Source: an uncultured Acetatifactor sp.
GTDB lineage: Bacteria; Bacillota; Clostridia; Lachnospirales; Lachnospiraceae
Assembly: GCA_910588225.1 (NCBI GenBank)
Contig: CAJUQT010000010.1
Coordinates: 29,224-93,223, forward strand
Direction: 5' to 3'
DNA length: 64,000 bases
Positions 969-42,208 of the stretch are shown piece by piece. Below the pieces are notes generated by a model. That model had not been told where the DNA came from. It did not search any database and saw only the letters and a program-made list of their open reading frames with translations. Positions within the stretch are counted from its first letter, which is position 1. The number at the start of each line of letters is the position of its first letter. A program made the position numbers and the translations under genes.

Positions 969-1054
969 TTTGCCTCCTGATATTGTTCTGCTGTTAATCT
1001 ATCTATGCCTTCCTTACAGTATACAAAAACCCATTGTAAAAGTAAAGACAGGAA

Positions 1055-2248
1055 TCAGCACTGCGTGTCAGCCTTCTTCTCCTTTTTACACATCCATATT
1101 CCAAAGATCAGAAACAAAGGAAAAAATACTGCCGCCAGAATCCCTTTCTTCAAATCTTCATCAAAGCAGCTGGACACCATTCCCACCACAGTAGGACCGC
1201 CGGAACAGCCCAGATCCCCGGCCAATGCCATCATGGCAAATAACGCGGTACTCCCCTTTCTTATAGACGCCGCAGCCTTGCTGAAGGTTCCCGGCCACAT
1301 GATACCCACAGACAGTCCACATACGGCACAGCCTATCAGACCGATGACCGGATTAGGTATAAAGGAAATACACAGATAAGAAATCACACACAATATGCTG
1401 CTTCCTGTCATAAATCTGTCCAGATTGATTTTCTCTCCATATTTTCCATAGAAAACCCTTGCGCTTCCCATCAAAATGGCAAAGGCCATAGGCCCGGCCA
1501 GATCGCCCACTATCTTGCTGACTCCAAGCCCCTTTTCCGCAAAAGTAGAAGCCCACTGACTCACCGACTGCTCACTTGCCCCGGCGCACATCATCATCAA
1601 CATGAATATCCAGAAAATCTTCATTCTCACAAGTTCTTTTATGGAAAGTCCTTTTTCTCCTTCTTCAATAAGAGACGCAATGGGTACGCGTGCAAACAGG
1701 AAAGTATTTATCAGCGGAATCAACGCCCAGATACATGCCAACACCTTCCAGTTCTCAATTCCAAATATTTTGAAAAATACTGTGGATACCAATACCACTG
1801 CAACATGCCCCCAGCAGTAAAAAGAATGCAGAAGGCTCATGGTCTGCTCCTTATGATCCGAAGGACAGGCTTCCACCACAGGACTTACCAGTACTTCCAG
1901 CAGTCCTCCGCCGATGGCATAGAGGATAACCGCAATCAGAATTCCGGCAAAAGGATTTCCCAGCAGCTCTGGCAGCACCGCCAATAGTATCAGTCCTGAC
2001 GCCGCAAAGAGATGGGCGATTATCATGGATGCTCTATAACCAATCCTGTCCACAAATCCCACAGATATCAGATCCACCAGAAGCTGCAGACCAAAGTTAA
2101 TGGTCACCAGCATGGTAATTTGAGACAAAGGAATTCCATAGGTATCCTGAAACGTCAAAAACAACAAAGGAACAAAATTATTGACAATAGCCTGTACAAT
2201 ATATCCTATGAAGCAGGCATAAATTGTTTTTTGATACTTATTTTTCAT
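1055..2248 (-). CDS. MFS transporter (probable sugar permease)
   Basis: 397 aa with about 12 hydrophobic segments and an MFS loop motif (FVDRIGYR). Confidence 0.85.
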   Translation of the reverse strand: MKNKYQKTIYACFIGYIVQAIVNNFVPLLFLTFQDTYGIPLSQITMLVTINFGLQLLVDLISVGFVDRIGYRASMIIAHLFAASGLILLAVLPELLGNPFAGILIAVILYAIGGGLLEVLVSPVVEACPSDHKEQTMSLLHSFYCWGHVAVVLVSTVFFKIFGIENWKVLACIWALIPLINTFLFARVPIASLIEEGEKGLSIKELVRMKIFWIFMLMMMCAGASEQSVSQWASTFAEKGLGVSKIVGDLAGPMAFAILMGSARVFYGKYGEKINLDRFMTGSSILCVISYLCISFIPNPVIGLIGCAVCGLSVGIMWPGTFSKAAASIRKGSTALFAMMALAGDLGCSGGPTVVGMVSSCFDEDLKKGILAAVFFPLFLIFGIWMCKKEKKADTQC

Positions 2249-2298
2249 TTCCAGCCTCCCAATCTGAAATTGCTTTTAAATACCTGAATCCACATTCA

Positions 2299-3234
2299 TC
2301 ATGGCAGCAAATCTTTCTGCCATTGTACCTTCTTCACTCTTTTATATAAAGCCTTAATTTCTTCTCCAGTGGCCAGCAATTCCGAATATGCGCTGGCGCT
2401 TCCGGCGGCAAGCCCCATGGAAAAAGCATAGCCATAATCCTTCCGCTCTGTCCATCCTGCAAGAAATCCTGCTACCATGGAATCTCCGGCTCCCACACTG
2501 TTTATCAACCTGCCCTCCGGCGCCGGTGCGGAATAGAATTTTCCGTCTTCCGCCGCCAGGACAGCCCCTTCTCCGGCCATGGACACCAGCACATTCAGAG
2601 CTCCCATTTCCCGGAGTCTCTCCGCATAAGGCATTGCTTCCTCCCGGCTCCGCAGCCTGATCCCGAAAATATCCCCAAGTTCATGATGATTAGGCTTCAC
2701 CAGAAACGGATGATACTTCAGCACATTCAGCAGCAGCTTCTTCTCTGCATCTACCACAGCCATCATTTTCCGTCCTTCCAGCCCTGCCAGAATTCGCTCA
2801 TATAGATCATCCGGAAGAGAGCCGGGAATACTGCCTGCCAGCACAAGTACATCCCCGGCCTGCAACGCACTCAGCTTCTCTGTCAAACATGTGACTTCCC
2901 TGTCGCTCACATCCGGTCCCCGGCCGTTGATTTCCGTGCCCTCTGCGGATTTCAGTTTCAGATTAATCCTGGATATTCCTCTCTTCAAAAAAATGAAATC
3001 CGTTTTCAAACCTGTTTCCTCCACCCGGCGGACAATCTCTTCTCCCGTAAATCCGGCTGCAAACCCCAGAGCAACATTCTCCACTCCCAGGTTATTCAGC
3101 ACTGTGGAGACATTGATCCCTTTCCCTCCAGGAAGAATTTGCTCGAAATCTGTTCGATTTGTCATTCCCTGTTTAAAGTTTTCTACTGAAACAATGTAAT
3201 CCAGGGAAGGATTGCATGTGACCGTATAAATCAT
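2299..3234 (-). CDS. PfkB-family sugar-phosphate kinase, 1-phosphofructokinase/LacC type
   Basis: MIYTVTCNPSLD, PGGKGINVS, KPNHHEL and the PfkB signature NSVGAGDSMVAGF. Confidence 0.88.
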   Translation of the reverse strand: MIYTVTCNPSLDYIVSVENFKQGMTNRTDFEQILPGGKGINVSTVLNNLGVENVALGFAAGFTGEEIVRRVEETGLKTDFIFLKRGISRINLKLKSAEGTEINGRGPDVSDREVTCLTEKLSALQAGDVLVLAGSIPGSLPDDLYERILAGLEGRKMMAVVDAEKKLLLNVLKYHPFLVKPNHHELGDIFGIRLRSREEAMPYAERLREMGALNVLVSMAGEGAVLAAEDGKFYSAPAPEGRLINSVGAGDSMVAGFLAGWTERKDYGYAFSMGLAAGSASAYSELLATGEEIKALYKRVKKVQWQKDLLP

Positions 3235-3402
3235 TTTCTTCTCCTGTCAATCCTGTATCTCTCATATTTTATATGTAAATTGACACCATGTTTTCCAGTA
3301 TAGCATTTTTTTCCTGTAAATGCTATCCAGATTTTCGTATCTTTTTTATAAAAAGAATGTAACAACTCGGTGCCCTGTCCGAACGATTTCGAACAAAATT
3401 CA

Positions 3403-3436
3403 GGGAGGTTATGACTCATACAAATCACAACCTCCC
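3403..3436 (-). terminator. Stem-loop after the GH140 gene, probable terminator of the isomerase-to-GH140 operon
   Basis: GGGAGGTT-A-TGA ... TCA-C-AACCTCCC inverted repeat about 50 bp downstream of the GH140 stop. The U-tract is weak. Confidence 0.5.
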
Positions 3437-3487
3437 CGTCTTTATCTATGTTGATAAGCCTGGCAGCTCCATTTCACTGTTGACAGT

Positions 3488-4846
3488 TTAACCTTCTGCC
3501 AGTAGTACAAGCACCACGTCCGTACCATCTTCTCTCTCAGGCGGATTAAACGTCGCCTCTTCTCCGGTCACCATGCTTACGTAAGTGTACATTCCCGTCA
3601 CAGGGTCCATCCAGTAAGCCTGCAGTTTCCTGCCTCCATAGGCTTTCAGGGACAGAGCAATCGGTCTCCCTGTCACTGTGTAGGCAAGCAGAAAGTCATC
3701 GCCGGCCAGGACACTGATGTAGTCATATTTTTCGCCCTGTTCACTCAGCAGGTATTCCTGTGCGGGATGTCCCTTTTCAAAGCCCACCCGTTCACACAGC
3801 TTCTTCAGATGAACCATCTGTGCTCCGCCCGGATGATGAATGGCTTCCGACCAGAGATATTTCGCACCATATGCCCCTTCCCTGGAAGCATCCTTATAAA
3901 ACTGCATGATGGAATTATGGCCATACACATGCCCGGCCGCCCCGGCAAACACACTCCAGTAAGCATACCTTCTCACATCCGCAGCTTTCCAGTAAGGCTG
4001 GGAATTATCATGCAGTCCCTGCCGAATCCACTCATAGGAAGGTTCTCCGTCCAGCACAGGTCTGACGGGGCTCTTCTCCAGATCCCGCTTCACATATTTC
4101 CAGCTGTCCTCGCCGAACCATTCTTCCTTCGCCGTATTGTCATCCCACTTCTGCATGCTGACCTGGTCATAACGCCTGTGGCCGGACTGGAACAGGTTAA
4201 AGTCCAGCCAGTCCTCCTCATGAAACCAGAGGGAAGAACTGGTTCTGCCAAAAGGATGATACGTTACCAGACGATCCGGATTGTCTTCTTTCATGCGCTT
4301 TCCCATGTGTCGGAACACTTCAATAGCCACATCTCCCCGCACATCTCCTCCCACAACCCAAATGATATTCGGAAAATCATGATATCTGTTCAGCACAAAA
4401 TCCATATAGGCATCCACATTTTCCATATTCATGCGGCCGCTTTTTACCACACTGCTGCCCCACACAGGAAGAATTCCCATGTAAAGTCCCAGCTCGCGCG
4501 CCATTTCCATCACCGCGTCCACATGGGTCCAAAAGCTTCCTTCCGTATTCGGTCTGGCAGGATCTTCTTCTGTCAGCGCGCTGTCCCCGGCCAGATTCTT
4601 CTGGTCCACGGTATGGATAAAATCCGCCAGAATTACATTATAGCCCAGATCCTTCCGGTTCCTGAGATACACATAGCTCTCTTCCAGAGTCAGCTGGTGA
4701 AATAACAGCCAGGCCGTATCGCCCAGCAGAAAGAAAGGTTCCTCGCCGCAGCAAAAATGTCTGCCGTCCTCTGCTACCTTCAAAAGCCCTTTTTCCCAGG
4801 GAGCCTTTGCTTTTAATTCTGTTTTCATGTATACTTTTGTCTCCAA
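3488..4846 (-). CDS. Glycoside hydrolase family 140 (DUF4038, apiosidase-like) with a C-terminal collagen-binding-like domain
   Basis: Motifs FFLLGDTAWLL, GYNVI, WVVGGD, TYHP, FNLFQSGH and DGEPSYEWIRQGLHD resemble GH140 endo-apiosidases. No signal peptide. ATG at 4828 is an alternative start. Confidence 0.8.
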   Translation of the reverse strand: METKVYMKTELKAKAPWEKGLLKVAEDGRHFCCGEEPFFLLGDTAWLLFHQLTLEESYVYLRNRKDLGYNVILADFIHTVDQKNLAGDSALTEEDPARPNTEGSFWTHVDAVMEMARELGLYMGILPVWGSSVVKSGRMNMENVDAYMDFVLNRYHDFPNIIWVVGGDVRGDVAIEVFRHMGKRMKEDNPDRLVTYHPFGRTSSSLWFHEEDWLDFNLFQSGHRRYDQVSMQKWDDNTAKEEWFGEDSWKYVKRDLEKSPVRPVLDGEPSYEWIRQGLHDNSQPYWKAADVRRYAYWSVFAGAAGHVYGHNSIMQFYKDASREGAYGAKYLWSEAIHHPGGAQMVHLKKLCERVGFEKGHPAQEYLLSEQGEKYDYISVLAGDDFLLAYTVTGRPIALSLKAYGGRKLQAYWMDPVTGMYTYVSMVTGEEATFNPPEREDGTDVVLVLLAEG

Positions 4847-4878
4847 TCTCTATAAATTATATTTTCTGGCCACCCAAA

Positions 4879-6336
4879 TTAAAAAGTCATGGACACCGCC
4901 TTTTTCCAGGCAGCATACTTTGCCGCTCTGTTCTCCTCCGACATCTCAGGCGCATACGTCCTGTATTCCATCCGGGAGAACAGGCTTTCCCGGCGGTAAA
5001 TGCCTGCGGTAAGTCCGGCCAGATAAGCCGCCCCTATGGCGGATAGTTCCTCCTGTCCTGCGGCGCTTACCCTCACATTCGCAAGGTCGCTCTGCATCTG
5101 CATCAGATATTGATTCTTCGTAGGGCCTCCGTCTGTGCGAAGCTCCTGCAGCCCACAGCCGCTGTCCTGCTCCATAGCCTTCAGCACATCCGTCACCTGA
5201 AAAGCAATGCTGTCCAGGGCTGCCCGGACAATTTCCGCCCGCCCCGTGGTACGGCTCATTTCCGCAAGCACTGCCTTCGCATCACCTTTCCAGTAAGGAG
5301 CCGACAGTCCTGTGAAGGCAGGCACCAGAATACAGGTATCCGCAGGGTTCGCCTGCAATGCTAATTTTTCCGTCTCCCCGGGAGAGGAAATCAGACCTAC
5401 ATCCTCCTTTAACCAGGTAATCACAGCCCCTGTATAATTGATATTTCCCTCCAGCACATAGGTAGCTTTTCCATCTATTCCCCAGGCAAGGGAGGCAGCC
5501 AGACCATTTTTGCTCTGTACAAAGCTTTCTCCGATATTCATCATCACCGAAGAACCGGTTCCGTAAGTGGCCTTCACCATACCGCTTTCATGACAACCCT
5601 GTCCAAACAACGCCCCATGGGAATCCCCCAACATGGACAGAATCGGAATTTCTTTCTCCAGAAAGCCTTCAAAATCCGTGGTCCCGAAGCAGCTGTTGCT
5701 GTCACAGACCTCCGGCAGAGCCTCCATAGGAACGCCGAACAATGTGCAGAGCTCTGAATCCCAGGTAAGGGTACGTAAATTGAAAAGCTGGGTGCGGGAC
5801 GCATTGGAATAGTCTGTTTTATATAAATGATTTTTCGTCAACTTAAAAAGCAGCCAACTATCCACAGTACCGAAATGCAGCTTTGTATCCCCTGAAAGTC
5901 CTGAAACCACATTTTCCATCAGCCAGGCCATCTTCGCTGCAGGGAAATAGGCTGACAGAGGAATTCCTGACCTTTCATAGACAGTCTCTCCATTGTCTTT
6001 CAGCCGCTCCACAACCGTTTCTGCTCGGTTACACTGCCACACGACAGCGTGATTCAAAGGACGGCCCTGCTCATCCCACAGTACGGTAGTCTCTCGCTGA
6101 TTGCTGATACCCACGGCCGCCAGCTGTTCTTTTGGGACAGCCGCTCCTTCCACCGCCATTTTCACTGCTCGGATAACATTCCGGTATATTTCCTCCGGAT
6201 CATGAGAGACCCAGCCCTTTTCATTGACAATCTGTCTGTGAGGCACATCGGCCCGATATACGATTGCTCCGTCCCCGTCAAACAGCATGGCTTTGGTTCC
6301 CTGAGTACTCTGGTCGATTCCAATGATATATTTCAT
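4879..6336 (-). CDS. FGGY-family carbohydrate kinase (glycerol-kinase-like; candidate apulose kinase)
   Basis: IGIDQSTQGTK, ISNQRETT, TDYSNASRTQLFN, GDSHGALFGQ, KATYGTGS, DGGPTKN. Confidence 0.85.
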   Translation of the reverse strand: MKYIIGIDQSTQGTKAMLFDGDGAIVYRADVPHRQIVNEKGWVSHDPEEIYRNVIRAVKMAVEGAAVPKEQLAAVGISNQRETTVLWDEQGRPLNHAVVWQCNRAETVVERLKDNGETVYERSGIPLSAYFPAAKMAWLMENVVSGLSGDTKLHFGTVDSWLLFKLTKNHLYKTDYSNASRTQLFNLRTLTWDSELCTLFGVPMEALPEVCDSNSCFGTTDFEGFLEKEIPILSMLGDSHGALFGQGCHESGMVKATYGTGSSVMMNIGESFVQSKNGLAASLAWGIDGKATYVLEGNINYTGAVITWLKEDVGLISSPGETEKLALQANPADTCILVPAFTGLSAPYWKGDAKAVLAEMSRTTGRAEIVRAALDSIAFQVTDVLKAMEQDSGCGLQELRTDGGPTKNQYLMQMQSDLANVRVSAAGQEELSAIGAAYLAGLTAGIYRRESLFSRMEYRTYAPEMSEENRAAKYAAWKKAVSMTF

Positions 6337-6374
6337 AAATCAGCCCTCCTGCAGAGCCCTTCGGCTCCGTTTGT

Positions 6375-7319
6375 TCATAACCTGTCTGACACTGTCAGAG
6401 CCTTCTGTACTGTCCGGGCAATTCCTTCCGCATCCAGTCCGTAATGGGCGAAAATTTCCCTGTTATTTCCCCCAATCATATGTCCGTCCGGCAGGGCCAG
6501 ATTCATCACACGTCTGGGGCAATGGGCGGATATCACCTGCGCTGTAATGCTTCCCAGTCCCCCGAAAGGAGAATGCTCTTCCACCGTCACCACCAGCTTT
6601 GCTTTCTCTGCCGCCGCCAGAAGAGTCTCTTCATCTATGGGCTTCACGCAGTACATATCAAGCATCCCCACACTGTAACCCTTTTCCCGCAGGAGCTTTC
6701 CCGCTTCATAAGCATTGGGCACCATCTCACCGCAGGCCACCAGCAGAATGTCTTCCCCCTCCATCAGCACATTTGCTTTATTCAGGGTAAATTCCATCTT
6801 TTCATCGTATACATCTTCAGTGGCAGATCTGCTGACCCGCACATAAGCCGGCAGTTCATCCTGCAGAAGTGCCTGCATCAGCTTCTCTGTCTGAAAGCGG
6901 TCGCTTGGCAGATACACTCTCATGTCCGGCAGGGCGGCAAAGGCCGCAATATCCTGACAGGAATGATGGGTCATCCCCAACGCTCCGTAACTGACGCCTC
7001 CACTGATACCGATTAAGGTCACGTTCGTTTTGGAATAAGCCACATCCACCTTCGCCTGCTCATAGCTTCTGGTGGAGAGAAAGCAGGCCGGGGAGGCGGC
7101 GAATACCTTTTTCCCGCAGGAAGCCAGCCCTGCGGACACTGTGACCAGATTCTGTTCCGCAATCCCCATCTCCACGAACTGTCGGGGAAATTTATCCGCA
7201 AAAGCAGACAGGGAAGCGGATCCTCTGGAATCGGAGCAGACTACCACAATATCCCGGTCCTGTTCCGCCGCCTTTAACAGGGTATCACATATCACCTGAC
7301 GGTTGGTTATCTTATTCAT
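6375..7319 (-). CDS. Transketolase, C-terminal (pyrimidine-binding) subunit
   Basis: FVEMGIAEQNLV, YGALGMTHH, VTVEEHSPFGGLGS. Overlaps the N-subunit stop codon. Confidence 0.9.
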   Translation of the reverse strand: MNKITNRQVICDTLLKAAEQDRDIVVVCSDSRGSASLSAFADKFPRQFVEMGIAEQNLVTVSAGLASCGKKVFAASPACFLSTRSYEQAKVDVAYSKTNVTLIGISGGVSYGALGMTHHSCQDIAAFAALPDMRVYLPSDRFQTEKLMQALLQDELPAYVRVSRSATEDVYDEKMEFTLNKANVLMEGEDILLVACGEMVPNAYEAGKLLREKGYSVGMLDMYCVKPIDEETLLAAAEKAKLVVTVEEHSPFGGLGSITAQVISAHCPRRVMNLALPDGHMIGGNNREIFAHYGLDAEGIARTVQKALTVSDRL

Positions 7320-8134
7320 GCCAGCACCTCCTCCAGCTCCCGTACTGCTGTTTTATACTGTTCCTCTGTCATCACGCCATGATGCCAGCTCTTGTTGTCT
7401 TCCATGAAGGAAACTCCTTTGCCCTTCACCGTATGCGCGATCACAGCAGTGGGGCGTCCCTTTACCTCTGCGGCCTGCTCATAGGCCTCCAGAAGCTGCC
7501 CGCAGTCATTGCCATCCTCCACGGTAATCACATGCCAGCCGAAAGCTCTGAATTTCTCCCCCATATCGTCACTGCACATTACTTCTTTTGTGCTGCCGCT
7601 GATCTGCAGGCGATTTAAATCCACAGTCGCACACAGGTTATCCAGTTTATAATGAGCCGCGGCCATCATAGCTTCATAATTAGAGCCTTCCGCCATCTCT
7701 CCGTCTCCCAGCACCACATAGGTCCGATATTCCCTGCCGTCCATCTTCGCCGCCAGCGCGGTTCCCACACCCAGCGCCAGACCATGGCCCAGAGAGCCTG
7801 AATTCATCTCGATGCCCGGCACATCGGTATTTGGATGTCCAATAAATCTTGAACCATAAGCGCTGAAGGTATTGATCGCTTCCTGTTTGTCGAAAAATCC
7901 TTTCTCCCCAAGCACTATATATAACGCATCCGCACAGTGCCCCTTACTCAAGAAGAAACGATCTCTGTCCGAAGAATTCCAGTTCTCCGGGGACACCTTC
8001 ATCACCTTAAAATACAGTACTGTCAGAATATCCATCACACTCAGATCTCCGCCCACATGGCCTGCGGCGGAACGATATACTTCCTCAATTACATCCCTCC
8101 GCAATCCGTAAGCTTTCCTTGTCAATTCATCCAT
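7316..8134 (-). CDS. Transketolase, N-terminal (TPP-binding) subunit
   Basis: GHVGGDLS, LSKGH, SGSLGHGL and the TPP motif GDGEMAEG...N. Start moved to ATG 8134 (AGGAAAGG RBS) from the ORF-track start at 8212. Confidence 0.9.
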   Translation of the reverse strand: MDELTRKAYGLRRDVIEEVYRSAAGHVGGDLSVMDILTVLYFKVMKVSPENWNSSDRDRFFLSKGHCADALYIVLGEKGFFDKQEAINTFSAYGSRFIGHPNTDVPGIEMNSGSLGHGLALGVGTALAAKMDGREYRTYVVLGDGEMAEGSNYEAMMAAAHYKLDNLCATVDLNRLQISGSTKEVMCSDDMGEKFRAFGWHVITVEDGNDCGQLLEAYEQAAEVKGRPTAVIAHTVKGKGVSFMEDNKSWHHGVMTEEQYKTAVRELEEVLA

Positions 8135-8199
8135 ATTTTTTCCTTTCCTGCAATCTGCCTGACTATTGCCTTCTTGTCGGAACATTCTCCCACAATTCC

Positions 8200-9606
8200 T
8201 TAGTACCCACACACTTTACCCTTCACTTCATCCTCATTATCATCATACAGGTCAGGTTTCACCCCTATGTATTTGCAGGCTTCGTACAGTACAGGCACCA
8301 CATCCTTATGGATTCCTACACAGTGATGGATATAGGGTCCTTCCACAATCTTCGTCTCCAGGCGTTTCCAGTTCTTCACTTCCACCCACACATAAGTACC
8401 CTTTGTATAAGGTCCGTCCACACCTGCGGCATTGCCCAGAAGCATAGAATATTCCCCATTGTCTCCGTCGAATCGGCACAGAGTCATCTCCCCGTGCTTT
8501 GCCTCCGCTTCCACTGCTCCGGGATGAGAGAACGCCAGAGGATATCCGATGGTTGGCTTACAGGAGGCACAGGACAGCGGCCAGGGACCACAGTGCTGCA
8601 GCAGTTCTCCATTCTCATTGTCCGGATGACGCACAGTCCAGTCTGCGAAGAAGCTTCTGGCCTCGTCCATGCCTGCTGCCTCTGCCAGAACGGCGGTTAT
8701 GGCTCCGTGAATATCCGTCTCACATACCACCGGCAGTCCTTCCTCGTTCAGGAGACTGTTGGCAGCACAGGGCATAATGCCGATTTCTCCCTGGAGAGCA
8801 TTCCAGCACTGAATCGCCGCCGCATTACAGCCGTATTGATCCGCCAGATTCCGCATTGCCACCTTCAATGCCGCAACGGTCTCCAGCTCCTCATCCTTAA
8901 TCGCAATATTGAAATGCTCTCTGCAGTAGGCAACTGTCTCCGCCACCTTTGTTCCTTCTGCTTTCGCCTTTTCTATCTCATCTTTCAATTCCGGCATGGG
9001 AATAGGAGACAGCTGAATATTGAATTTCTCCAGCAGTTCGCCTTCATTACACATGGTAGACCAGAAGTCAAATGGCCTGGGCCCAATCTGCAGGATTCTG
9101 GTGCTGCGGAAGGTTTTCACAACATTACAGACTGCCAGGAAGTTGCGGATGCCCTTCTCGAATTCCACATCCTCCAGTCTGCAGTTGCACAGATAAGTAA
9201 ACGGCACACCGAATCGTCTCAATACCTTACCGGTAGCAAACAGTCCGCACTGACTGTCTCTGAGACGCACGCCATTCTCATCCGGCCTCTCATCTCTGGG
9301 TCCCCAGAGCAATACCGGCACATTCAACTCCTTCGCAAGCCTTGCCACTTCATATTCCGTACCGAAATTCCCATGCGGAAAAAACAGTCCGTCCACCTTC
9401 TGCTCCCGGAACTTCTCCGCAATCCGGATTCTGTCTCCGTCATCGTGAAGCAGTCCGTCCTCAGCGATATCTGTGATATCCACAAAAGATACTCCCATGC
9501 TTTTCAGCTTCTCTCTGGTCAGATTCGCATATTTTACCGCGTCCGGAGCAGAGAAAATACTTCTTCTGGTCGGTGCATAACCCAATACAATTTTCGCCAT
9601 ATTCAT
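8200..9606 (-). CDS. L-fucose/L-arabinose isomerase-family protein
   Basis: NFGTE, LLWG, RDSQCG, AIQCW, CETDIHGA, HCGPWP and a C-terminal HH. GGAGGT RBS. Confidence 0.8.
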   Translation of the reverse strand: MNMAKIVLGYAPTRRSIFSAPDAVKYANLTREKLKSMGVSFVDITDIAEDGLLHDDGDRIRIAEKFREQKVDGLFFPHGNFGTEYEVARLAKELNVPVLLWGPRDERPDENGVRLRDSQCGLFATGKVLRRFGVPFTYLCNCRLEDVEFEKGIRNFLAVCNVVKTFRSTRILQIGPRPFDFWSTMCNEGELLEKFNIQLSPIPMPELKDEIEKAKAEGTKVAETVAYCREHFNIAIKDEELETVAALKVAMRNLADQYGCNAAAIQCWNALQGEIGIMPCAANSLLNEEGLPVVCETDIHGAITAVLAEAAGMDEARSFFADWTVRHPDNENGELLQHCGPWPLSCASCKPTIGYPLAFSHPGAVEAEAKHGEMTLCRFDGDNGEYSMLLGNAAGVDGPYTKGTYVWVEVKNWKRLETKIVEGPYIHHCVGIHKDVVPVLYEACKYIGVKPDLYDDNEDEVKGKVCGY

Positions 9607-9646
9607 ACCTCCATCGAATTATATATTATTAATACGGAATACTTTC

Positions 9647-9734
9647 ATTATTTAATTAAGAGAACTTAATATCAATCTGAAATTAAGTATTTTATCTGTA
9701 TTTTCTTGACTTAATTTACTTAATTTTTTATAAT
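9647..9734. promoter_or_regulatory. Back-to-back sigma70-type promoters for the isomerase operon and lacI, with repeated CTTAAT motifs
   Basis: Plus strand: TTGACT(9706)-N17-TATAAT(9729). Minus strand: TTGATA(9675-9670)-N17-AATAAT(9652-9647). Palindrome ATTAAG-AGAA-CTTAAT at 9655-9670. ACTTAATTT at 9709 and 9718, and inverted at 9680. Confidence 0.55.
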
Positions 9735-9917
9735 GACACTGGAATTGTGCTTTTGAATTCCAGTGTGCAGATTCTATAATCAAAATTATATTGTTGCCTT
9801 ACTATCATGCAAGGTAAGGCAACAGGAATGCATGGGGAATACTGTATAAAATATAATGTATTATCAATGAAAATGTTTTAAGCAATATATTTCAGATATA
9901 GGAATGAGGAGAAAGAT

Positions 9918-10934
9918 ATGTCTGTCACCGCCAAAGAACTGGCCAGCCTGTTGAATCTGTCCGAAGCCGCCGTATCCATGGCCCTGAACGGCAAACCTGG
10001 AGTCAGCACTGCCACACGCAAAAAAGTCGTGGAAACCGCCGAAAAATACGGCTATGATTTCAGCCGGATTACCGCAAAAGCGCCTGCGCCCCGGCCTTCT
10101 CAGGGCACTCTGTATTTCATTATCTACCGCAAGCACGGCGCGGTAGTGACCGATACTCCCTTTTTTTCTCAGCTGTCTCAGGGGATTGACTCCGGCTGCA
10201 AAAAACACCACTACTTTTTAAACGTATTTTATCTGGATGAAGGGGAAAATCCGGAACGTCAGCTCCGGGAACTGATTCATTTCGACTGTAAGGGAATTCT
10301 TCTGCTGGGCACGGAAATGCTGGAAAATGATGTGCTTCCCTTTCTGAATCTGAAACTGCCTCTGGTCATCCTGGACACCTGTTTTGAGACCATAGAGGCG
10401 GATTATGTTCTGATCAATAATGCGCAGGGTGCCTATCTGGCCACCTGCCACCTGCTTTCCCGGTGCAGAGAACAGCCCGGATACCTGCGCTCTTCCTACC
10501 CAATCAATAATTTTACGGAACGGGCGGACGGATTCTATCGGGCAGTCCGTCGAAACGGCATGTCCACCTCCAACTCAAAAGTACATTTCCTCTCCCCCTC
10601 TGCGGAAGGGGCTTATGCGGATATGACAGCGATTCTGAGTACCGGAGAGAAGCCGGCCCGCTGCTACTTCGCCGACAATGACCTGATTGCCTGCGGCGCC
10701 ATGAAGGCGCTGAAGGAAAAAGGATACCGGATTCCTCAGGATGTGTCCATTGTGGGCTTCGACAATATGCCAATGTCCGCCTATACGGAACCGGCTCTCA
10801 CCACTGTCAACGTCCCGAAAGAATACATGGGAGAGATGGCCGTCTGCCGTCTCTCCCAGCTTATCGAATCCCAGGGGAATATTCCCGTGAAATTGGAGAT
10901 TTCCACCACCCTTGTAAAGCGGAAAACCGTATAA
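9918..10934 (+). CDS. LacI-family transcriptional regulator
   Basis: N-terminal HTH (TAKELASLLNLSEAAVSMALNGKPGVS) and a sugar-binding domain with ND.IA.G and SIVGFDN. Divergent from the isomerase operon. Confidence 0.92.
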   Translation: MSVTAKELASLLNLSEAAVSMALNGKPGVSTATRKKVVETAEKYGYDFSRITAKAPAPRPSQGTLYFIIYRKHGAVVTDTPFFSQLSQGIDSGCKKHHYFLNVFYLDEGENPERQLRELIHFDCKGILLLGTEMLENDVLPFLNLKLPLVILDTCFETIEADYVLINNAQGAYLATCHLLSRCREQPGYLRSSYPINNFTERADGFYRAVRRNGMSTSNSKVHFLSPSAEGAYADMTAILSTGEKPARCYFADNDLIACGAMKALKEKGYRIPQDVSIVGFDNMPMSAYTEPALTTVNVPKEYMGEMAVCRLSQLIESQGNIPVKLEISTTLVKRKTV

Positions 10935-11049
10935 TTAGATTCCTGCGGAAACAAGCCGCACCCCGTGTCGAAAACGCCTTATTCCATTCCTGCAAATGCT
11001 GATTTTTCCGTAACAGTTCAGCGCCCTGTCCGAACTGTTACGATTTTCC

Positions 11050-13017: not shown

Positions 13018-13152
13018 TTATACTACATTCCTTTCCACAATTTACAGATATAATGCCACACAGATTATTCTTTTCCATATAATGTTCCAATTACCTGTCT
13101 GAACTACTGCCTATTCGTTCCCATCCCTTACTCTCTATCAGAAAAGCAGATA

Positions 13153-15837
13153 TCAGAAAGACTTCCGATACACAATCTCCCACTCTCCGGAACCGCACTG
13201 TGCAGTGAAAATCCCCTCCTTCAAAGCAAAATCCAGCCCCTCAGTCCTGATCTCTTCGGCGCCTTTTTCCAATCTGATCTCCGCGGTGGTATTGTGTGGA
13301 ATTGTAATCTGCAGCCTGCGGACATCCTCCGCCTCCCCCTTTTCCCAGCGAACCTTCAACACACCGTACACACTCTCGTAAGAGCCCTCCGCAAAGTCGA
13401 ATGCATCTCCTGTCTGGGGACTGATAATGGAATGATGATAACCCGGGTCCTTCTCGTCGATTTCCATTCCCAGCACCACTCTGTAAAGCCAATCCCCCAC
13501 AGCGCCGTAAGCATAATGATTGAAGGAATTCATATCCGGACTCCACATGGTCCCGTCTGGCTTCATGCCGTCCCAATGCTCCCAGACAGTGGTTGCTCCC
13601 ATCTTTACCTGATAAAGCCAGGAAGGGAAATCCTCCTTCAGCAGAAGGTCATAAGCCTCCTTCACATAGCCGTTACGGCTCAGCGCATGGCAGAAATAAG
13701 GCGTTCCCACGAAACCAGTGACCAGATGGCCATTCTCCTTCTTCAGCAGCTCTGTCAGACGCCGGGCTGTCTGGGCCCTGAAAGCTTCCGGCACCAGATC
13801 AAAATACAACGCCACAATGTGAGCCGTCTGGGTCTGGGCTGTCATGGTTCCGTCCGCCTGAAAGAAGGTTCGTCTGAACTTCTCCACAATCTTGTCATGC
13901 AGGGCACCGTACCGCACCGCATCCTCCCGCCTGTCCAGAATCCCGGCAATTTTCACGAAAAGTCCTGTGGAATAGGCAAAATATGCCGTACAGGTCAAAT
14001 CGTTTGGCGTGGCGCCGAAGTAGCTTCCCTCCTCTGCATCCAGCGCCACCCAGTCCCCGAACTGCAGCCTGTAATTCCATATGTAATCTGTGGAATGCTC
14101 TTTCATGAAATCAATCCACTTCCGCATACTCTCATACTGCTCTTCCAGAATTGTCTTATCCCCGAACGTCAGATACATGGTCCAGGGATTAATCACTGCC
14201 ACATCCGCCCATGCCGCCGCGGAATGAGTCCCCTGGGACAACAGCCAGTCATTCTCTTCCTTCCCGCTGATAATGTCAGGCACCACATGAGGCACACCTC
14301 CCTCCGGCGTCTGATCCGCCGCCACATCCTTCAGCCATTTCCGGAAAAAAGTATACGTGTTCATAAGCCAGCAGGCAGTCCTGCAGAAAATCTGGGCGTC
14401 TCCCGTCCATCCCACTCTTTCGTCTCTCTGAGGGCAATCCGTGGGAATATCCAGGAAATTCCCCTTCAGACCCCAGAGAATATTCTGCTGCAGTCTGTTC
14501 ACCAGCGGATTGGAACACCGAAAGGTTCCCGTCTGCTCCATCTGGGAATAAAGTGCAAACGCCAAGAAATCTTCCGCCTTCACTTCTCCGGGCCATTGCA
14601 GAATCTGTACATACCGAAATCCCATAAAGGTAAAAAGAGGGTGATACTCTTCCGGCCCGTCCCCTTTGCAGATATAATGAATCTCCTGCTTCGCGGAACG
14701 CAGATTTGCCGTATATACATTTCCCTGTGCATCCAGTGTCTCAAAGCATTTCAGAACAATCTCACATCCCCTGTCCGCCTGCACTCGAAAATTCACCCAT
14801 CCGGTCAGGTTCTGACCGAAATCAATCACAGTTTCCCTGTTGGGTGTCACAATCACTTCCCTGGCCTGAAGCTTTTCCATTTTCCGCACCCTGCTGCCCG
14901 CCTGGGCCGTGAGCGCTTCCATCGGGAACTCAATTCTGCTTACCTTTTTCCATTTCCCTTCATCTTCCGACTCCAGTCTGGCATCATACCATTCTCCGTC
15001 GTAAATCTCCGAAAAAGTTACTGGACCGGGTCGTCCCTGCCAGCTTTCGTCCGTCACGAAAATCTCTTCCCTGCCATCCTTATACCGCACTATCATCTGC
15101 ATCAGAAAAGCTGTTCTCGTACCGTAATTGTTCCTCAATAGCAGGAATCCCATCTTTCCTTTGTACCATCCTGCTCCCAGCATGACCTCCAGAACATTTT
15201 CTCCTTCTTTCAGCAGTTCTGTCACATCACAGGTCTGGTAACATAGATGCTTATGATAAGAAGTCCAGCCAGGGGTCATTTCGTCCTCTCCCTCCTTCTC
15301 TCCATTGATAAAAAAGCGGTACAATCCCAAAGCTGTCCCACACACATAAGCCGACTCCACTTCCCCCTTCAGATAAATCCTTTTCTTCAGACAGGTACTG
15401 TTGGATTTCTCGCTGTCTGATTCTTCCTCCACGGTAATGAAACCTGCCTTCCACTGGCTCCTGTCCAGAATTCCTGTCACAAAGGAAGCAGTGTCGCTGT
15501 AAGGACTCTTCTCCACGCCATCGCTCACCCGGACTCGCACAAAATATTCCCTGCAGGATTGAATCTCGCCTGATACTTTTCCTTTTTCATTGATTCGAAT
15601 TCCCTGCCCCTCTGTCTTCTCCCATGGAATTTCCACATGAACAGATTCTTCGCTCTCCACGAAACCACTGTCATAGACGAGCCTTTCAAACTGCAAATCC
15701 TCCGCAATCTGCAGCTGATAGGACTTTTGTACCACGCTTTTCCTGTCGCTCTCCAGCACCCAGCCAAACCATGGAATCCCTCCCAGACCTGTAGGCTGTT
15801 CCACATACTCCATTCTGATTTTTATCGCTTTAAGCAT
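13153..15837 (-). CDS. Alpha-L-rhamnosidase, GH78
   Basis: DFGQNLTGW, DIPTDCPQRDERVGWTGDAQ, GATTVWEHW, MNSFNHYAYGAV. Start moved to ATG 15837 (GGGAGAG RBS). No signal peptide. Confidence 0.92.
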   Translation of the reverse strand: MLKAIKIRMEYVEQPTGLGGIPWFGWVLESDRKSVVQKSYQLQIAEDLQFERLVYDSGFVESEESVHVEIPWEKTEGQGIRINEKGKVSGEIQSCREYFVRVRVSDGVEKSPYSDTASFVTGILDRSQWKAGFITVEEESDSEKSNSTCLKKRIYLKGEVESAYVCGTALGLYRFFINGEKEGEDEMTPGWTSYHKHLCYQTCDVTELLKEGENVLEVMLGAGWYKGKMGFLLLRNNYGTRTAFLMQMIVRYKDGREEIFVTDESWQGRPGPVTFSEIYDGEWYDARLESEDEGKWKKVSRIEFPMEALTAQAGSRVRKMEKLQAREVIVTPNRETVIDFGQNLTGWVNFRVQADRGCEIVLKCFETLDAQGNVYTANLRSAKQEIHYICKGDGPEEYHPLFTFMGFRYVQILQWPGEVKAEDFLAFALYSQMEQTGTFRCSNPLVNRLQQNILWGLKGNFLDIPTDCPQRDERVGWTGDAQIFCRTACWLMNTYTFFRKWLKDVAADQTPEGGVPHVVPDIISGKEENDWLLSQGTHSAAAWADVAVINPWTMYLTFGDKTILEEQYESMRKWIDFMKEHSTDYIWNYRLQFGDWVALDAEEGSYFGATPNDLTCTAYFAYSTGLFVKIAGILDRREDAVRYGALHDKIVEKFRRTFFQADGTMTAQTQTAHIVALYFDLVPEAFRAQTARRLTELLKKENGHLVTGFVGTPYFCHALSRNGYVKEAYDLLLKEDFPSWLYQVKMGATTVWEHWDGMKPDGTMWSPDMNSFNHYAYGAVGDWLYRVVLGMEIDEKDPGYHHSIISPQTGDAFDFAEGSYESVYGVLKVRWEKGEAEDVRRLQITIPHNTTAEIRLEKGAEEIRTEGLDFALKEGIFTAQCGSGEWEIVYRKSF

Positions 15838-15864
15838 TTCACACTCTCCCTTGTATTTTCTACC

Positions 15865-15901
15865 CTTCATAAGGTCATCATATACAGATGACCTTATGAA
15901 G
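15865..15901. repeat. Perfect 15-bp inverted repeat with a 7-bp spacer
   Basis: CTTCATAAGGTCATC-ATATACA-GATGACCTTATGAAG, 28 bp upstream of the GH78 start. Confidence 0.9.

Positions 15902-40099: not shown

Positions 40100-42208
<2,109 letters not shown>

What the first reader, a model, noticed from the sequence alone, without database searches (positions are those of the whole stretch)
3488..9606. Complete-looking D-apiose release and catabolism operon in a Lachnospiraceae-type genome
Seen: five co-oriented, closely spaced genes encoding an isomerase, transketolase N, transketolase C, an FGGY kinase and a GH140-like hydrolase. Known: GH140 (prototype BT1012 of Bacteroides thetaiotaomicron) releases apiose from rhamnogalacturonan-II, and the non-oxidative apiose pathway uses an isomerase, apulose kinase (FGGY) and a two-subunit apulose-4-phosphate transketolase. 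Inference: this operon couples apiose release to its catabolism in a Firmicute gut lineage, where the pathway is little characterised.
Basis: partly seen in the sequence, partly recalled or inferred. Interest (0 to 1): 0.75.

Follow-up and report, generated by a model that had tools for sequence, protein, structure and literature searches.

The report
Apiose-release and apiose-breakdown operon
A mouse-gut Lachnospiraceae bacterium carries a five-gene operon that most likely cuts the rare plant sugar D-apiose off imported plant glycosides and feeds it into central metabolism. It is a Firmicute version of a pathway already known from Proteobacteria, and databases currently mislabel it as fucose isomerase, transketolase and glycerol kinase.

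Summary
Five overlapping or closely spaced genes on the minus strand (9606 to 3488) lie between a promoter-like site and a strong terminator-like hairpin, with a divergent LacI-family regulator. They encode an arabinose/fucose-isomerase-fold enzyme, a split transketolase, a glycerol-kinase-like FGGY kinase and a cytoplasmic GH140.

The apiose interpretation is supported by sequence analysis, not by biochemistry. Three lines of evidence back it:
- **Kinase.** It shares GDSH and GTGSS motifs with three kinases from proteobacterial apiose clusters (the E. coli one is aplK). Four true glycerol kinases have GDQQ and GTGxF instead.
- **Transketolase.** Both subunits share several active-site changes with AptA/AptB-type pairs. 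These are absent from canonical split, human and two unrelated split transketolases.
- **Context.** In 85 related loci, an apiosidase-family (PF13204) gene is the only common accessory: 38-41 loci have one and 28 have it adjacent. Three different PF13204 subfamilies are involved.

The isomerase is the weak link. It is only 25-27% identical to the ApsI-position isomerase, and closer relatives sit in unrelated contexts.

One mouse-gut metatranscriptome shows higher contig depth across the operon than its flanks.

Verdict: a new member of a known kind, of moderate interest. The main value is re-annotation, including Listeria lmo1030-1036.

The parts
8200..9606 (-). Aldose-ketose isomerase of the L-arabinose/L-fucose isomerase fold; proposed D-apiose isomerase (apiose to apulose)
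   Evidence: The AF2 model has pLDDT 95.9. The top Foldseek match is L-arabinose isomerase at TM 0.83, followed by D-arabinose and L-fucose isomerases. Identity to the isomerase in the Rahnella apiose-type cluster is 27% by BLASTP, E 2e-43. Family-wide E84, E188, E296, D298, H338, H427 and H428 are conserved. This gene is first in the operon in about 70 related genomes.
7316..8212 (-). Thiamine-diphosphate-binding subunit of a split transketolase (AptA-like)
   Evidence: Pfam Transketolase_N scores 177 bits. Identity to E. coli AptA is 43%. It shares GSLG-H-G, WH-H and GG-D-xS with AptA-type subunits of E. coli, Rahnella and Rhizobium, and the first two with Agrobacterium. Canonical transketolases have Q, G and S at those positions.
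6375..7319 (-). Pyrimidine-binding/C-terminal subunit of the split transketolase (AptB-like)
   Evidence: Pfam Transket_pyr plus Transketolase_C. Identity to E. coli AptB is 35%. Canonical THxG...GEDG...(S/T)HQ is replaced by ISGG...GALG...THH, as in AptB-type subunits (LNAG..GPLA..THH; QSSG/ISSG..GELG..THH). A housekeeping-context Collinsella split transketolase keeps the canonical motif.
4879..6336 (-). FGGY kinase of the glycerol-kinase branch; proposed apulose kinase (AplK-like)
   Evidence: Pfam FGGY_N/C. Identity to the E. coli aplK product is 38% and about 43% to true GlpKs. The pocket motifs GDSH and GTGSS are shared with 71 operon orthologs and 3 proteobacterial cluster kinases. Four GlpKs have GDQQ and GTGxF.
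3488..4828 (-). Cytoplasmic GH140-family glycosidase; proposed beta-D-apiofuranosidase (the ORF opens at TTG 4846; the likely start is ATG 4828)
   Evidence: Pfam Apiosidase PF13204 scores 336.5 bits, plus Collagen_bind_2. It scores 359 bits and 42% identity to BT1012 (3kzs/5msy), and also matches the apiosidase 8t9w. The N-terminus is not hydrophobic. W129, H197, Q220, E268, Y271 and E272 are invariant or nearly so across 43 operon-linked PF13204 proteins plus BT1012.
9647..9675 (-). Promoter-like site of the operon (TTGATA-17-AATAAT)
   Evidence: Consensus scan, 10 of 12 matches, 41 nt upstream of the isomerase start. Metatranscriptome contig depth drops at about 9586.
9664..9688 (.). Candidate operator: inverted repeat ACTTAAT-N11-ATTAAGT overlapping the -35 hexamer
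   Evidence: Read directly from the sequence. It is conserved in the closest genome, L003. CTTAAT-N11-ATTAAG occurs in 11 of 47 LacI-isomerase intergenic regions. The operator role is inference only.
9918..10934 (+). Divergently transcribed LacI-family regulator
   Evidence: Pfam LacI plus Peripla_BP_1/3. A LacI-family gene is present in 62 of the 85 related loci, usually divergent from the isomerase. A strong promoter-like site lies at 9706-9734 (+).
3401..3438 (-). Intrinsic-terminator-like hairpin ending the operon
   Evidence: The stem has 17 pairs (7 G-C) and is followed by a T-rich tail, 50 nt after the GH140 stop. In metatranscriptome X28, part of the downstream PfkB/MFS region has zero contig depth while the operon shows 45-150, apart from one assembly gap.
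13153..15870 (-). GH78 alpha-L-rhamnosidase, a possible accessory (could remove rhamnose from Rha-alpha-1,3'-apiose or from flavonoid glycosides)
   Evidence: Five Pfam rhamnosidase domains. It scores 538 bits to the alpha-L-rhamnosidase 6gsz. A GH78 gene lies within 10 kb of the cassette in only 6-9 of the related loci, so the link is weak.

Best explanation
The five genes form one LacI-controlled operon for using apiose-containing plant glycosides.

Proposed steps:
1. An apioside enters the cell through a transporter that is not in the operon. Candidate substrates are a trimmed rhamnogalacturonan-II or apiogalacturonan fragment, or a small apiosylated glycoside such as apiin.
2. The signal-peptide-less GH140 cleaves the beta-D-apiofuranosyl bond in the cytoplasm and frees D-apiose.
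3. The arabinose/fucose-isomerase-fold enzyme converts D-apiose to the ketose apulose.
4. The glycerol-kinase-like FGGY kinase phosphorylates one hydroxymethyl arm to give apulose 4-phosphate. Its glycerol pocket is changed at two motifs, GDQQ to GDSH and GTGxF to GTGSS.
5. The split thiamine-diphosphate transketolase transfers the C1-C2 glycolaldehyde unit to glyceraldehyde 3-phosphate. The products are xylulose 5-phosphate and dihydroxyacetone phosphate.

What is shown here: the gene content, order and boundaries; homology; the shared active-site signatures; the genomic association with apiosidase-family genes; and contig-depth evidence for expression in the mouse gut.

What is inferred: every catalytic activity, the identity of the natural apioside, the transporter, and the effector of the regulator.

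The reaction chemistry comes from my recollection of Carter et al. 2018. I could not open that paper.
For: **Operon anatomy.**

**Reference cluster.** E. coli SE15 aplK/aptA/aptB belong to a cluster carried by strains that grow on D-apiose (PMC13001218). The window proteins are 38, 43 and 35% identical to them.

**Same architecture in Proteobacteria.** An enterobacterial apiose-type cluster on a Rahnella plasmid has the order aptA-aptB-'fucose isomerase'-kinase. Its isomerase is homologous to the window isomerase (27% identity, E 2e-43).

**Kinase signature.** GDSH and GTGSS occur in the window kinase, 71 operon orthologs and 3 proteobacterial cluster kinases. Four glycerol kinases from Bacteria and Archaea have GDQQ and GTGxF.

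**Transketolase signature.** The changes are shared with AptA/AptB-type pairs from four proteobacterial clusters. They are absent from the canonical split transketolase 6yaj/6yak, from human transketolase, from a housekeeping-context Collinsella split transketolase and from two split transketolases in unrelated clusters.

**Plasmid ranking.** After its own ortholog, the closest C-subunit in the plasmid collection comes from a Chondrinema cluster that has a FucI-like isomerase about 1 kb away. A Rhizobium cluster with a TIM-barrel isomerase and an FGGY kinase is also among the top hits of the sampled ranking.

**Isomerase fold.**

**Genomic association.**
- Of 85 loci with the cassette, 38-41 carry a PF13204 apiosidase-family gene within 10 kb.
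- 28 have it directly adjacent or inside the operon.
- The next most frequent accessory family occurs in 9 loci or fewer.
- Three different PF13204 subfamilies fill this slot.
- In Listeria and on L. plantarum plasmids the cassette sits with a beta-glucoside PTS, a PF13204 gene and, in L. plantarum, a 6-phospho-beta-glucosidase.

**GH140.** It is 42% identical to the BT1012 apiosidase over its full length, and a core of residues is conserved.

**Expression.** Metatranscriptome X28 has contig depth 45-150 over most of 3455-9586, with one low bin at an assembly gap near 4500-5000. LacI shows about 10-16, PfkB/MFS 0-25 and UNK655/GH78 0-50.
Against: - No biochemical or growth data exist for this organism or any Firmicute carrying the cassette.
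- The isomerase is only 25-27% identical to the isomerase at the ApsI position. It lies on a different main branch of a large family, and relatives at 37-44% identity sit in unrelated gene contexts. Its substrate therefore rests on context alone.
- By overall similarity the kinase is nearer to glycerol kinases than to the proteobacterial cluster kinases, and it passes the NCBIfam GlpK subfamily cut-off.
- The NJ tree that groups it with the cluster kinases is weakly supported.
- The closest sequenced relative, L003, has the cassette but no GH140, and about half of the loci lack a PF13204 gene within 10 kb.
- No transporter lies in the operon.
- My proteobacterial references rest on growth phenotype and synteny, not on enzyme assays of those exact proteins.
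- The expression evidence comes from assembler contig depth in one run, which is a poor measure.
Confidence: 0.72

Rival explanations
1. The cassette breaks down a different sugar released by PF13204-family glycosidases, not D-apiose. Candidates are another furanose, a branched sugar or a tetrose/pentose. It would follow the same logic of isomerise, phosphorylate, then cleave with a transketolase.
For: - Only two PF13204 proteins appear as named apiosidases in what I could consult.
- The commonest operon-linked subtype (DUF5060-DUF4038-DUF5605) matches PF13204 with only 60 bits.
- The isomerase clade is distant from the ApsI-position isomerase, and its nearer relatives have other contexts.
Against: - The kinase and both transketolase subunits carry the same pocket substitutions as enzymes from clusters tied to growth on D-apiose.
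- A transketolase whose aldose-binding Asp is replaced by Leu fits a donor that leaves a ketone (dihydroxyacetone phosphate).
- The window's own PF13204 protein is of the BT1012 type, at 42% identity over the full length.
Confidence: 0.15
2. The genes are what databases call them: a glycerol kinase and an ordinary split transketolase serving glycerol/dihydroxyacetone or pentose-phosphate metabolism, next to an unrelated fucose-type isomerase and glycosidase. The Listeria literature treats lmo1031-1036 this way.
For: - The kinase scores 546.5 bits against the NCBIfam GlpK subfamily model (cut-off 498), and its best PDB matches are all glycerol kinases at 405-415 bits.
- Orthologs are named 'glycerol kinase EC 2.7.1.30', 'transketolase' and 'fucose isomerase' in NCBI and UniRef.
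- PMC3091722 calls lmo1031-1036 an operon for glycerol metabolism.
Against: - The kinase fails the GlpK equivalog cut-off (540.5 against 590.35).
- The GDQQ and GTGxF motifs are replaced in all 72 operon kinases. From memory of E. coli GlpK structures, these motifs hold glycerol-contacting residues.
- No glpF or glpD lies nearby, unlike a true glpK locus.
- The transketolase lacks the canonical THxG and GEDG motifs that a housekeeping-context split transketolase retains.
- No fuculokinase or fuculose-phosphate aldolase is present.
- The fixed four-gene order across about 70 species, with a dedicated repressor, argues for one dedicated pathway.
Confidence: 0.05
3. The cassette is a sulfoquinovose transketolase-type pathway. 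The only NCBIfam hit of the isomerase is the sulfoquinovose isomerase SftI, and that pathway also uses a split transketolase.
For: The isomerase aligns end to end with NF048012 (SftI) at 103 bits, E 1.5e-29.
Against: - The score is far below the 700-bit cut-off.
- The Rahnella apiose-cluster isomerase hits the same model equally weakly (116 bits), so the hit reflects family membership only.
- From memory, the sulfo-transketolase pathway has no sugar kinase.
- No sulfoquinovosidase, sulfoacetaldehyde reductase or sulfonate exporter appears in the window or among the recurrent neighbours.
Confidence: 0.02

Closest known systems
Transketolase route of D-apiose catabolism in Proteobacteria (apsI, aplK, aptA, aptB; Carter et al. 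2018, MetaCyc PWY-8089). Examples used here: E. coli SE15 ECSF_RS02670-02715 and a Rahnella aquatilis plasmid cluster.
   Same: - It uses the same four enzyme families: a FucI/AraA-fold isomerase in the Rahnella type, a GlpK-like FGGY kinase, and a two-subunit transketolase.
- The kinase pocket signature and the transketolase active-site signature are the same.
- All genes are clustered with a dedicated regulator.
   Different: - Identities are only 25-43%.
- The isomerase belongs to a different branch of its family.
- Gene order differs: isomerase first here; aptA-aptB-isomerase-kinase in Rahnella.
- The proteobacterial clusters import free apiose through an ABC system with a ribose-type binding protein and DUF2291. 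They have no glycosidase.
- The regulator is LacI-type here and an annotated 'sugar-binding transcriptional regulator' there.
- E. coli and Agrobacterium replace the isomerase with two SDR oxidoreductases, and Rhizobium uses a TIM-barrel isomerase.
BT1012, the founding GH140 beta-D-apiosidase of the Bacteroides thetaiotaomicron RG-II utilisation locus (PDB 3kzs/5msy)
   Same: It has the same PF13204 catalytic domain and C-terminal domain, aligns over the full length at 42% identity, and shares the conserved GEPxYE core.
   Different: - BT1012 is periplasmic, sits in a large PUL and cleaves Apif-beta-1,2-GalA to detach RG-II side chains.
- The window enzyme has no signal peptide and sits in a small catabolic operon with no other RG-II enzymes apart from a nearby GH78. 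Its natural substrate is probably a small imported apioside.
Listeria monocytogenes lmo1030-lmo1036 (and the related cassette on Lactiplantibacillus plantarum plasmids)
   Same: It has the same LacI | isomerase - TK - TK - kinase cassette. The isomerase is 71% identical in Listeria and 60% in L. plantarum. A PF13204 glycosidase lies in the same operon.
   Different: - The PF13204 protein belongs to another subfamily, about 26% identical to the window GH140 in the Listeria-type copies of related loci.
- A beta-glucoside PTS is present, and in L. plantarum also a 6-phospho-beta-glucosidase. This suggests PTS uptake of an apiosyl-beta-glucoside.
- Published work treats the operon as glycerol or fucose metabolism, and its function is untested.
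Glycerol kinase GlpK
   Same: Same fold and about 43% identity. The NQRET, WQC and ATP-binding regions are conserved.
   Different: The pocket motifs are changed (GDQQ to GDSH, GTGxF to GTGSS). There is no glpF/glpD context. The score is below the equivalog cut-off.
Canonical split transketolase (Carboxydothermus hydrogenoformans 6yaj/6yak)
   Same: Same two-subunit architecture, with the best PDB sequence matches at 240 and 208 bits. The thiamine-diphosphate and metal motifs are conserved.
   Different: The substrate-channel residues differ: the THxG His is lost, GEDG becomes GALG, SHQ becomes THH, GSLGQG becomes GSLGHG and WHG becomes WHH.

Membership tests
D-apiose transketolase pathway (ApsI/AplK/AptAB) | FGGY kinase of the AplK type rather than GlpK | tested here: met
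   The GDSH and GTGSS motifs are shared with the E. coli aplK product and the Rahnella and Rhizobium cluster kinases, and are absent from 4 GlpKs. Identity to the E. coli protein is 38%. Overall identity does not discriminate.
D-apiose transketolase pathway (ApsI/AplK/AptAB) | Two-subunit transketolase of the AptA/AptB type | tested here: met
   Identities are 43% and 35% to E. coli AptA and AptB. Multi-site active-site signatures are shared with four proteobacterial apiose-type clusters and are absent from five control transketolases.
D-apiose transketolase pathway (ApsI/AplK/AptAB) | D-apiose isomerase (ApsI) ortholog | tested here: inconclusive
   The fold and family are the same, and identity to the Rahnella cluster isomerase is 27% at E 2e-43. 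However, it lies on a separate branch, and nearer relatives have unrelated contexts. I inferred that ApsI is the 'fucose isomerase' gene from the Rahnella cluster, not from the primary paper.
D-apiose transketolase pathway (ApsI/AplK/AptAB) | All pathway genes clustered and co-regulated | tested here: met
   It is one operon with a promoter, a terminator and a divergent LacI gene. The order is conserved in about 70 genomes. Contig depth is raised across the operon relative to its flanks in one metatranscriptome.
D-apiose transketolase pathway (ApsI/AplK/AptAB) | Enzyme activities on apiose, apulose and apulose 4-phosphate; growth on D-apiose | not testable with these tools
   This needs biochemistry or culture work.
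Glycoside hydrolase family 140 | PF13204 catalytic domain above the curated threshold, and full-length similarity to BT1012 | tested here: met
   It scores 336.5 bits against a cut-off of 26.5. It scores 359 bits to 3kzs/5msy at 42% identity over 432 positions.
Glycoside hydrolase family 140 | Catalytic residues of BT1012 conserved | tested here: inconclusive
   E268, E272, H197, Q220, Y271 and W129 are invariant or nearly so across 43 operon-linked PF13204 proteins plus BT1012. I could not obtain the published identity of the catalytic residues.
Glycoside hydrolase family 140 | beta-D-apiofuranosidase activity | not testable with these tools
   This needs an enzyme assay.
Glycerol kinase GlpK (EC 2.7.1.30) | Curated HMM cut-offs | tested here: inconclusive
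   It passes the subfamily model NF000756 (546.5 against 498) but fails the equivalog TIGR01311 (540.5 against 590.35).
Glycerol kinase GlpK (EC 2.7.1.30) | Glycerol-pocket motifs GDQQ and GTGxF, and a glpF/glpD context | tested here: not met
   The window has GDSH and GTGSS instead. No glp genes lie nearby.
Canonical transketolase (EC 2.2.1.1) | Substrate-channel residues THxG, GEDG and (S/T)HQ in the C-terminal part | tested here: not met
   The window has ISGG, GALG and THH. The controls retain the canonical motifs.
Sulfoquinovose isomerase SftI / L-fucose isomerase FucI | Curated model cut-off | tested here: not met
   SftI scores 103 bits against 700. Fucose_iso_C scores 28.6 against 29.3. 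No PDB sequence match at E 0.01 or below. FucI structures align at only 11-13% identity.

The most novel reading that the evidence does not exclude
The Firmicute cassette could be a separately assembled apioside-utilisation system rather than a simple ortholog of the proteobacterial apiose pathway. On this reading:
- Its isomerase was recruited from a different branch of the arabinose/fucose isomerase family.
- It is coupled to at least three subfamilies of cytoplasmic PF13204 glycosidases whose real substrates are small apiosylated plant glycosides taken up whole, not RG-II.
- In Listeria and L. plantarum that uptake goes through a beta-glucoside PTS, so the glycosidase would act on an apiosyl-beta-glucoside 6-phosphate.

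This would give new specificities to the GH140 superfamily. It would also assign a function to Listeria lmo1030-1036, currently read as glycerol or fucose metabolism.
Probability: 0.35. Interest if true: 0.6.

Novelty: new member of a known kind. Interest (0 to 1): 0.42.

Why it matters
D-apiose occurs in rhamnogalacturonan-II, in apiogalacturonans and in many dietary flavonoid and aroma glycosides. Which gut Firmicutes consume it is poorly mapped.

**Distribution.** The four-gene cassette is widespread in Bacillota. Carriers include the pectin specialist Monoglobus pectinilyticus, L. plantarum plasmids and Listeria monocytogenes.

**Annotation gap.** Public annotation calls the parts fucose isomerase, transketolase and glycerol kinase.

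**A practical annotation rule.** Two short signatures separate these enzymes from glycerol kinases and ordinary transketolases in the sequences I compared:
- kinase: GDSH plus GTGSS
- transketolase C-part: xSxG...G-x-L-x...THH

**What it would add if confirmed.** It would add apiose and apioside use to the metabolic maps of many gut Lachnospiraceae, and it would explain a Listeria operon whose role has been guessed at since 2010.

The pathway type itself is already known, so this is incremental rather than surprising.

Tried and rejected
- **Carter et al. 2018 and Ndeh et al. 2017.** Neither could be opened. Pathway chemistry and the identity of the BT1012 catalytic residues therefore rest on memory or secondary sources. 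Searches for 'apulose' and related terms found no additional source.
- **Plain identity or HMM ranking for the kinase.** This is uninformative or misleading. The kinase is nearer to GlpK than to the proteobacterial cluster kinases. I switched to pocket signatures.
- **NJ tree of kinases.** It places the cluster kinases with the operon kinases, but support for the deep nodes could not be read reliably. I treat it as weak evidence.
- **Isomerase orthology.** Relatives at 37-44% identity have no transketolase or kinase neighbours, so a superclade-wide function was rejected.
- **NCBIfam.** It holds no model that recognises the Rahnella cluster proteins as apiose enzymes.
- **PfkB (2299-3234) and MFS (1055-2248) as operon members.** Rejected. 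A strong terminator-like hairpin precedes them, part of the region has zero metatranscriptome depth, and they were not found in any of the related loci.
- **GH78 and the 655-aa unknown protein as core parts.** Rejected. They recur in few loci.
- **Inverted-repeat tool on the intergenic region.** It found nothing at min_length 12. The repeats were found by eye and by script.
- **Sulfoquinovose, fucose and glycerol readings.** Considered and rejected as set out under rival explanations.

Full report
**1. What is in the sequence**

The minus strand between 9606 and 3488 carries five ORFs at exactly the reported coordinates.

| Gene | Coordinates | Size |
|---|---|---|
| Isomerase | 8200-9606 | 468 aa |
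| Transketolase N-terminal part | 7316-8212 | 298 aa |
| Transketolase C-terminal part | 6375-7319 | 314 aa |
| FGGY kinase | 4879-6336 | 485 aa |
| GH140 | 3488-4846 | 452 aa |

- The first two junctions overlap by 13 and 4 nt. The other two are gaps of 38 and about 32-50 nt.
- Pfam gives clear hits for the transketolase halves, the kinase and the GH140 (Apiosidase PF13204 at 336.5 bits, plus Collagen_bind_2). The isomerase gets only a sub-threshold Fucose_iso_C hit.
- The GH140 most likely starts at the ATG at 4828. That 446-aa product occurs exactly on 8 independent contigs, including two MAGs with the same gene order. Its N-terminus (MKTELKAKAPWEKG...) has no signal peptide.
- A promoter-like site (TTGATA-17-AATAAT, 9675-9647) lies 41 nt upstream of the isomerase.
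- A 17-bp-stem hairpin with a T-rich tail (3438-3401) follows the GH140 stop.
- A LacI-family regulator (9918-10934, + strand) is transcribed divergently from its own strong promoter-like site.
- The organism is a mouse-gut Lachnospiraceae. The best genome match is MAG MGBC117495, at 93% protein identity for the isomerase but only 75-80% DNA identity, so it is a different species. The stretch is present in many mouse gut metagenomes from several studies.

**2. Is the kinase/transketolase pair of the apiose type?**

I could not open Carter et al. 2018. As reference I used the E. coli SE15 cluster ECSF_RS02670-02715. A 2026 paper names aplK, aptA and aptB in it and shows that carrier strains grow on D-apiose (PMC13001218).

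The window proteins are 38, 43 and 35% identical to these three. That alone proves little. The E. coli aplK product is itself 41-43% identical to true glycerol kinases. The window kinase is about 43% identical to GlpKs and passes the NCBIfam GlpK subfamily cut-off, though not the equivalog one.

The discriminating evidence lies in the active sites.

*Kinase.*
- An alignment of the window kinase with 71 operon orthologs, three proteobacterial apiose-cluster kinases (E. coli, Rahnella, Rhizobium) and four glycerol kinases (Staphylococcus, Enterococcus, Thermococcus, Pseudomonas) shows a clean split.
- All operon and cluster kinases have GDSH and GTGSS. All GlpKs have GDQQ and GTGxF. An Agrobacterium cluster kinase also has GDSH.
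- From memory of the E. coli GlpK structures, these motifs hold the catalytic Asp245, its neighbour Gln246, and Phe270, which packs on glycerol.
- Replacing Phe with Ser would make room for the extra C(=O)CH2OH substituent on the glycerol-like end of apulose.

*Transketolase, C-terminal subunit.*

| Canonical motif | Window | AptB-type (E. coli, Rahnella / Rhizobium, Agrobacterium) |
|---|---|---|
| THxG | ISGG | LNAG / QSSG, ISSG |
| GEDG | GALG | GPLA / GELG |
| (S/T)HQ | THH | THH |
| DADL | SDS | ADS / NDS |

*Transketolase, N-terminal subunit.* GSLGQG becomes GSLGHG and WHG becomes WHH.

*Controls.*
- The canonical split enzyme 6yaj/6yak, human transketolase and a housekeeping-context Collinsella split transketolase keep the canonical residues.
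- Two split transketolases in unrelated clusters (Rhizobium leguminosarum, Pantoea) have other patterns.
- From memory, the lost His and Asp correspond to E. coli TktA His461 and Asp469, which bind the substrate phosphate and the aldose C2 hydroxyl. Their loss is plausible for an enzyme whose leaving product is a ketone (dihydroxyacetone phosphate).

*Plasmid ranking.* In the plasmid collection, the nearest C-subunit after the direct ortholog comes from a Chondrinema cluster with a FucI-like isomerase about 1 kb away. A Rhizobium cluster with an FGGY kinase is also among the top hits of the sampled ranking.

**3. The isomerase**

- A Rahnella aquatilis plasmid carries an enterobacterial apiose-type cluster: binding protein, DUF2291, ABC transporter, regulator, aptA, aptB, 'fucose isomerase', kinase. 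So the gene at the ApsI position there belongs to the fucose/arabinose isomerase family.
- Rhizobium uses a TIM-barrel isomerase instead. E. coli and Agrobacterium use two SDR oxidoreductases.
- The window isomerase is homologous to the Rahnella one (27% identity by BLASTP, E 2e-43; 25% in the multiple alignment).
- Its AlphaFold model (pLDDT 95.9) superposes on L-arabinose isomerases at TM 0.83, and on D-arabinose and L-fucose isomerases at TM 0.74-0.78.
- Family-wide Glu, Asp and His residues are conserved.
- It is not a clear ortholog. It forms a tight clade: 77% identity or more across the 80 best genomes, 71% in Listeria, 60% in L. plantarum. That clade lies on a different branch from the Rahnella protein.
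- Two relatives at 37-44% identity have no transketolase or kinase neighbours. The substrate assignment for this enzyme therefore rests on context.

**4. Genomic context**

The best 80 were fetched with 10-kb flanks.

- Isomerase-TK-TK-kinase is conserved in about 70 of them. Most exceptions are contig ends.
- Unbiased clustering of all neighbouring ORFs ranks the families as follows:
  - the four core genes and LacI (62-78 loci)
  - a single accessory family, the PF13204 apiosidase-like proteins, in 38 loci (41 by tblastn)
  - all other families in 9 loci or fewer, mostly transporters
- In 28 loci the PF13204 gene is directly adjacent to or inside the operon, usually just after the kinase, as in the window.
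- Three subtypes fill this slot, and all score above the Pfam threshold:
  - the BT1012-like type (window, L032, L043)
  - a 421-aa Listeria type
  - a DUF5060-DUF4038-DUF5605 type, as in Monoglobus pectinilyticus
- Repeated recruitment of different subfamilies to the same cassette is strong evidence of a functional link.
- In L. monocytogenes the operon is LacI | isomerase-TK-TK-'glycerol kinase'-beta-glucoside PTS-DUF4038. This matches lmo1030-1036.
- On L. plantarum plasmids it is PTS-DUF4038-LacI | isomerase-TK-TK-kinase-6-phospho-beta-glucosidase. That suggests uptake of apiosyl-beta-glucosides.
- The closest genome, L003, has the cassette plus the GH78 and the unknown 655-aa gene, but no GH140. 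Homology with the window ends at 4895. The GH140 is therefore an add-on in this lineage.

**5. The GH140**

- It aligns end to end with BT1012 (3kzs/5msy) at 359 bits and 42% identity. It also matches the mangrove apiosidase 8t9w.
- A core including GEPxYE (E268, E272) is invariant or nearly so across BT1012 and 42 operon-linked PF13204 proteins.
- BT1012 cleaves Apif-beta-1,2-GalA, and the rhamnosidase BT1001 then acts on Rha-alpha-1,3-Api.
- The window enzyme is cytoplasmic, so it needs an imported substrate with an accessible apiosyl bond. The nearby GH78 could play the BT1001 role, but this is speculative.

**6. Expression**

- In the random-primed mouse-gut metatranscriptome X28, assembler depth is 45-150 across most of 3455-9586. 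One bin at about 4500-5000 is low (3.8) because of an assembly gap.
- Over the flanks, depth is about 10-16 over LacI, 0-25 over PfkB/MFS and 0-50 over UNK655/GH78.
- One contig spans the kinase-transketolase junction.
- The other three runs give flat low depth, and contig depth is a rough measure.

**7. Conclusion**

The pathway type is known, so I file this as a new member of a known kind.

Its value is in re-annotation:
- The cassette is named fucose isomerase, transketolase and glycerol kinase in the NCBI and UniRef records I examined.
- It is treated as glycerol or fucose metabolism in the Listeria literature.
- It is widespread in gut Bacillota.

I could not check whether Carter et al. 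already assigned this Firmicute cluster. PMC13001218 says they showed apiose degradation by 'Bacteroides and Clostridia'. If they did, the finding is already known.

Noticed in passing
window 11050-13017 (-): A 655-aa protein has no Pfam, NCBIfam or PDB sequence match. Its 445 homologs are all 'hypothetical' and mostly from Lachnospiraceae or Eubacteriales. The AF2 model (pLDDT 85.8) shows an N-terminal beta-sandwich plus an (alpha/alpha)6 barrel. The best structural match is the PL27 rhamnose-glucuronate lyase BACCELL_00875 at TM 0.44 only. It sits next to a GH78 rhamnosidase, and the pair is conserved in L003. It may represent an undescribed carbohydrate-active enzyme family.
   Followed up: partly
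L086 (Listeria monocytogenes, lmo1030-1036) and L087 (L. plantarum plasmid): The same isomerase-TK-TK-kinase cassette occurs with a beta-glucoside PTS and a DUF4038 (PF13204) gene, plus a 6-phospho-beta-glucosidase in L. plantarum. Published work calls the Listeria operon glycerol or fucose metabolism, and databases name its kinase glycerol kinase EC 2.7.1.30. It is probably an apiosyl-glucoside utilisation operon.
   Followed up: partly
window 37427-53323: The window contains the chromosomal replication-origin neighbourhood. On the minus strand are gyrA, gyrB, recF, dnaN and dnaA (37427-46369). On the plus strand are yidC, mnmE and mnmG (47733-53323). The apiose operon therefore lies about 36-43 kb from dnaA. 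GC skew is strongly negative over 1-16000.
   Followed up: no
window 9736-9766 and 9664-9688: Two inverted repeats lie in the LacI-isomerase intergenic region. One is a perfect 11-bp-arm repeat, ACACTGGAATT-N9-AATTCCAGTGT, between the divergent promoters. The other, ACTTAAT-N11-ATTAAGT, overlaps the -35 of the operon promoter. The second is conserved in L003 and recurs in 11 of 47 related intergenic regions. It is a candidate operator.
   Followed up: partly
window 8119-9669 (+): A 516-aa antisense ORF overlaps the whole isomerase gene, and similar shadow ORFs occur in 7 related loci. It is most likely a non-coding by-product of codon usage. It misled a longest-ORF gene picker.
   Followed up: no
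window 1055-3234 (-): A PfkB kinase passes the 1-phosphofructokinase equivalog cut-off (309.5 against 292). It lies just downstream of the operon terminator together with an MFS transporter, with a 62-aa ORF called between GH140 and PfkB in MAG annotations. They are not part of the conserved cassette. The MFS could still be the missing apioside transporter. One metatranscriptome contig skips 298 bases (1504 to 1803) inside the MFS gene.
   Followed up: no
L010, L021, L077: In three related genomes the isomerase is present without transketolase or kinase genes in the fetched locus. In L077 it is followed directly by a DUF5060-type PF13204 gene. The catabolic genes may lie elsewhere, or the isomerase may have another role there.
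   Followed up: no
window 33881-37336 (+): A 625-aa N6/N4 DNA methylase and a 492-aa protein with DUF7309/DUF6930/PRiA4_ORF3 domains lie between the lysyl-tRNA synthetase gene and gyrA. This may be a small mobile or defence-related insertion near the origin.
   Followed up: no
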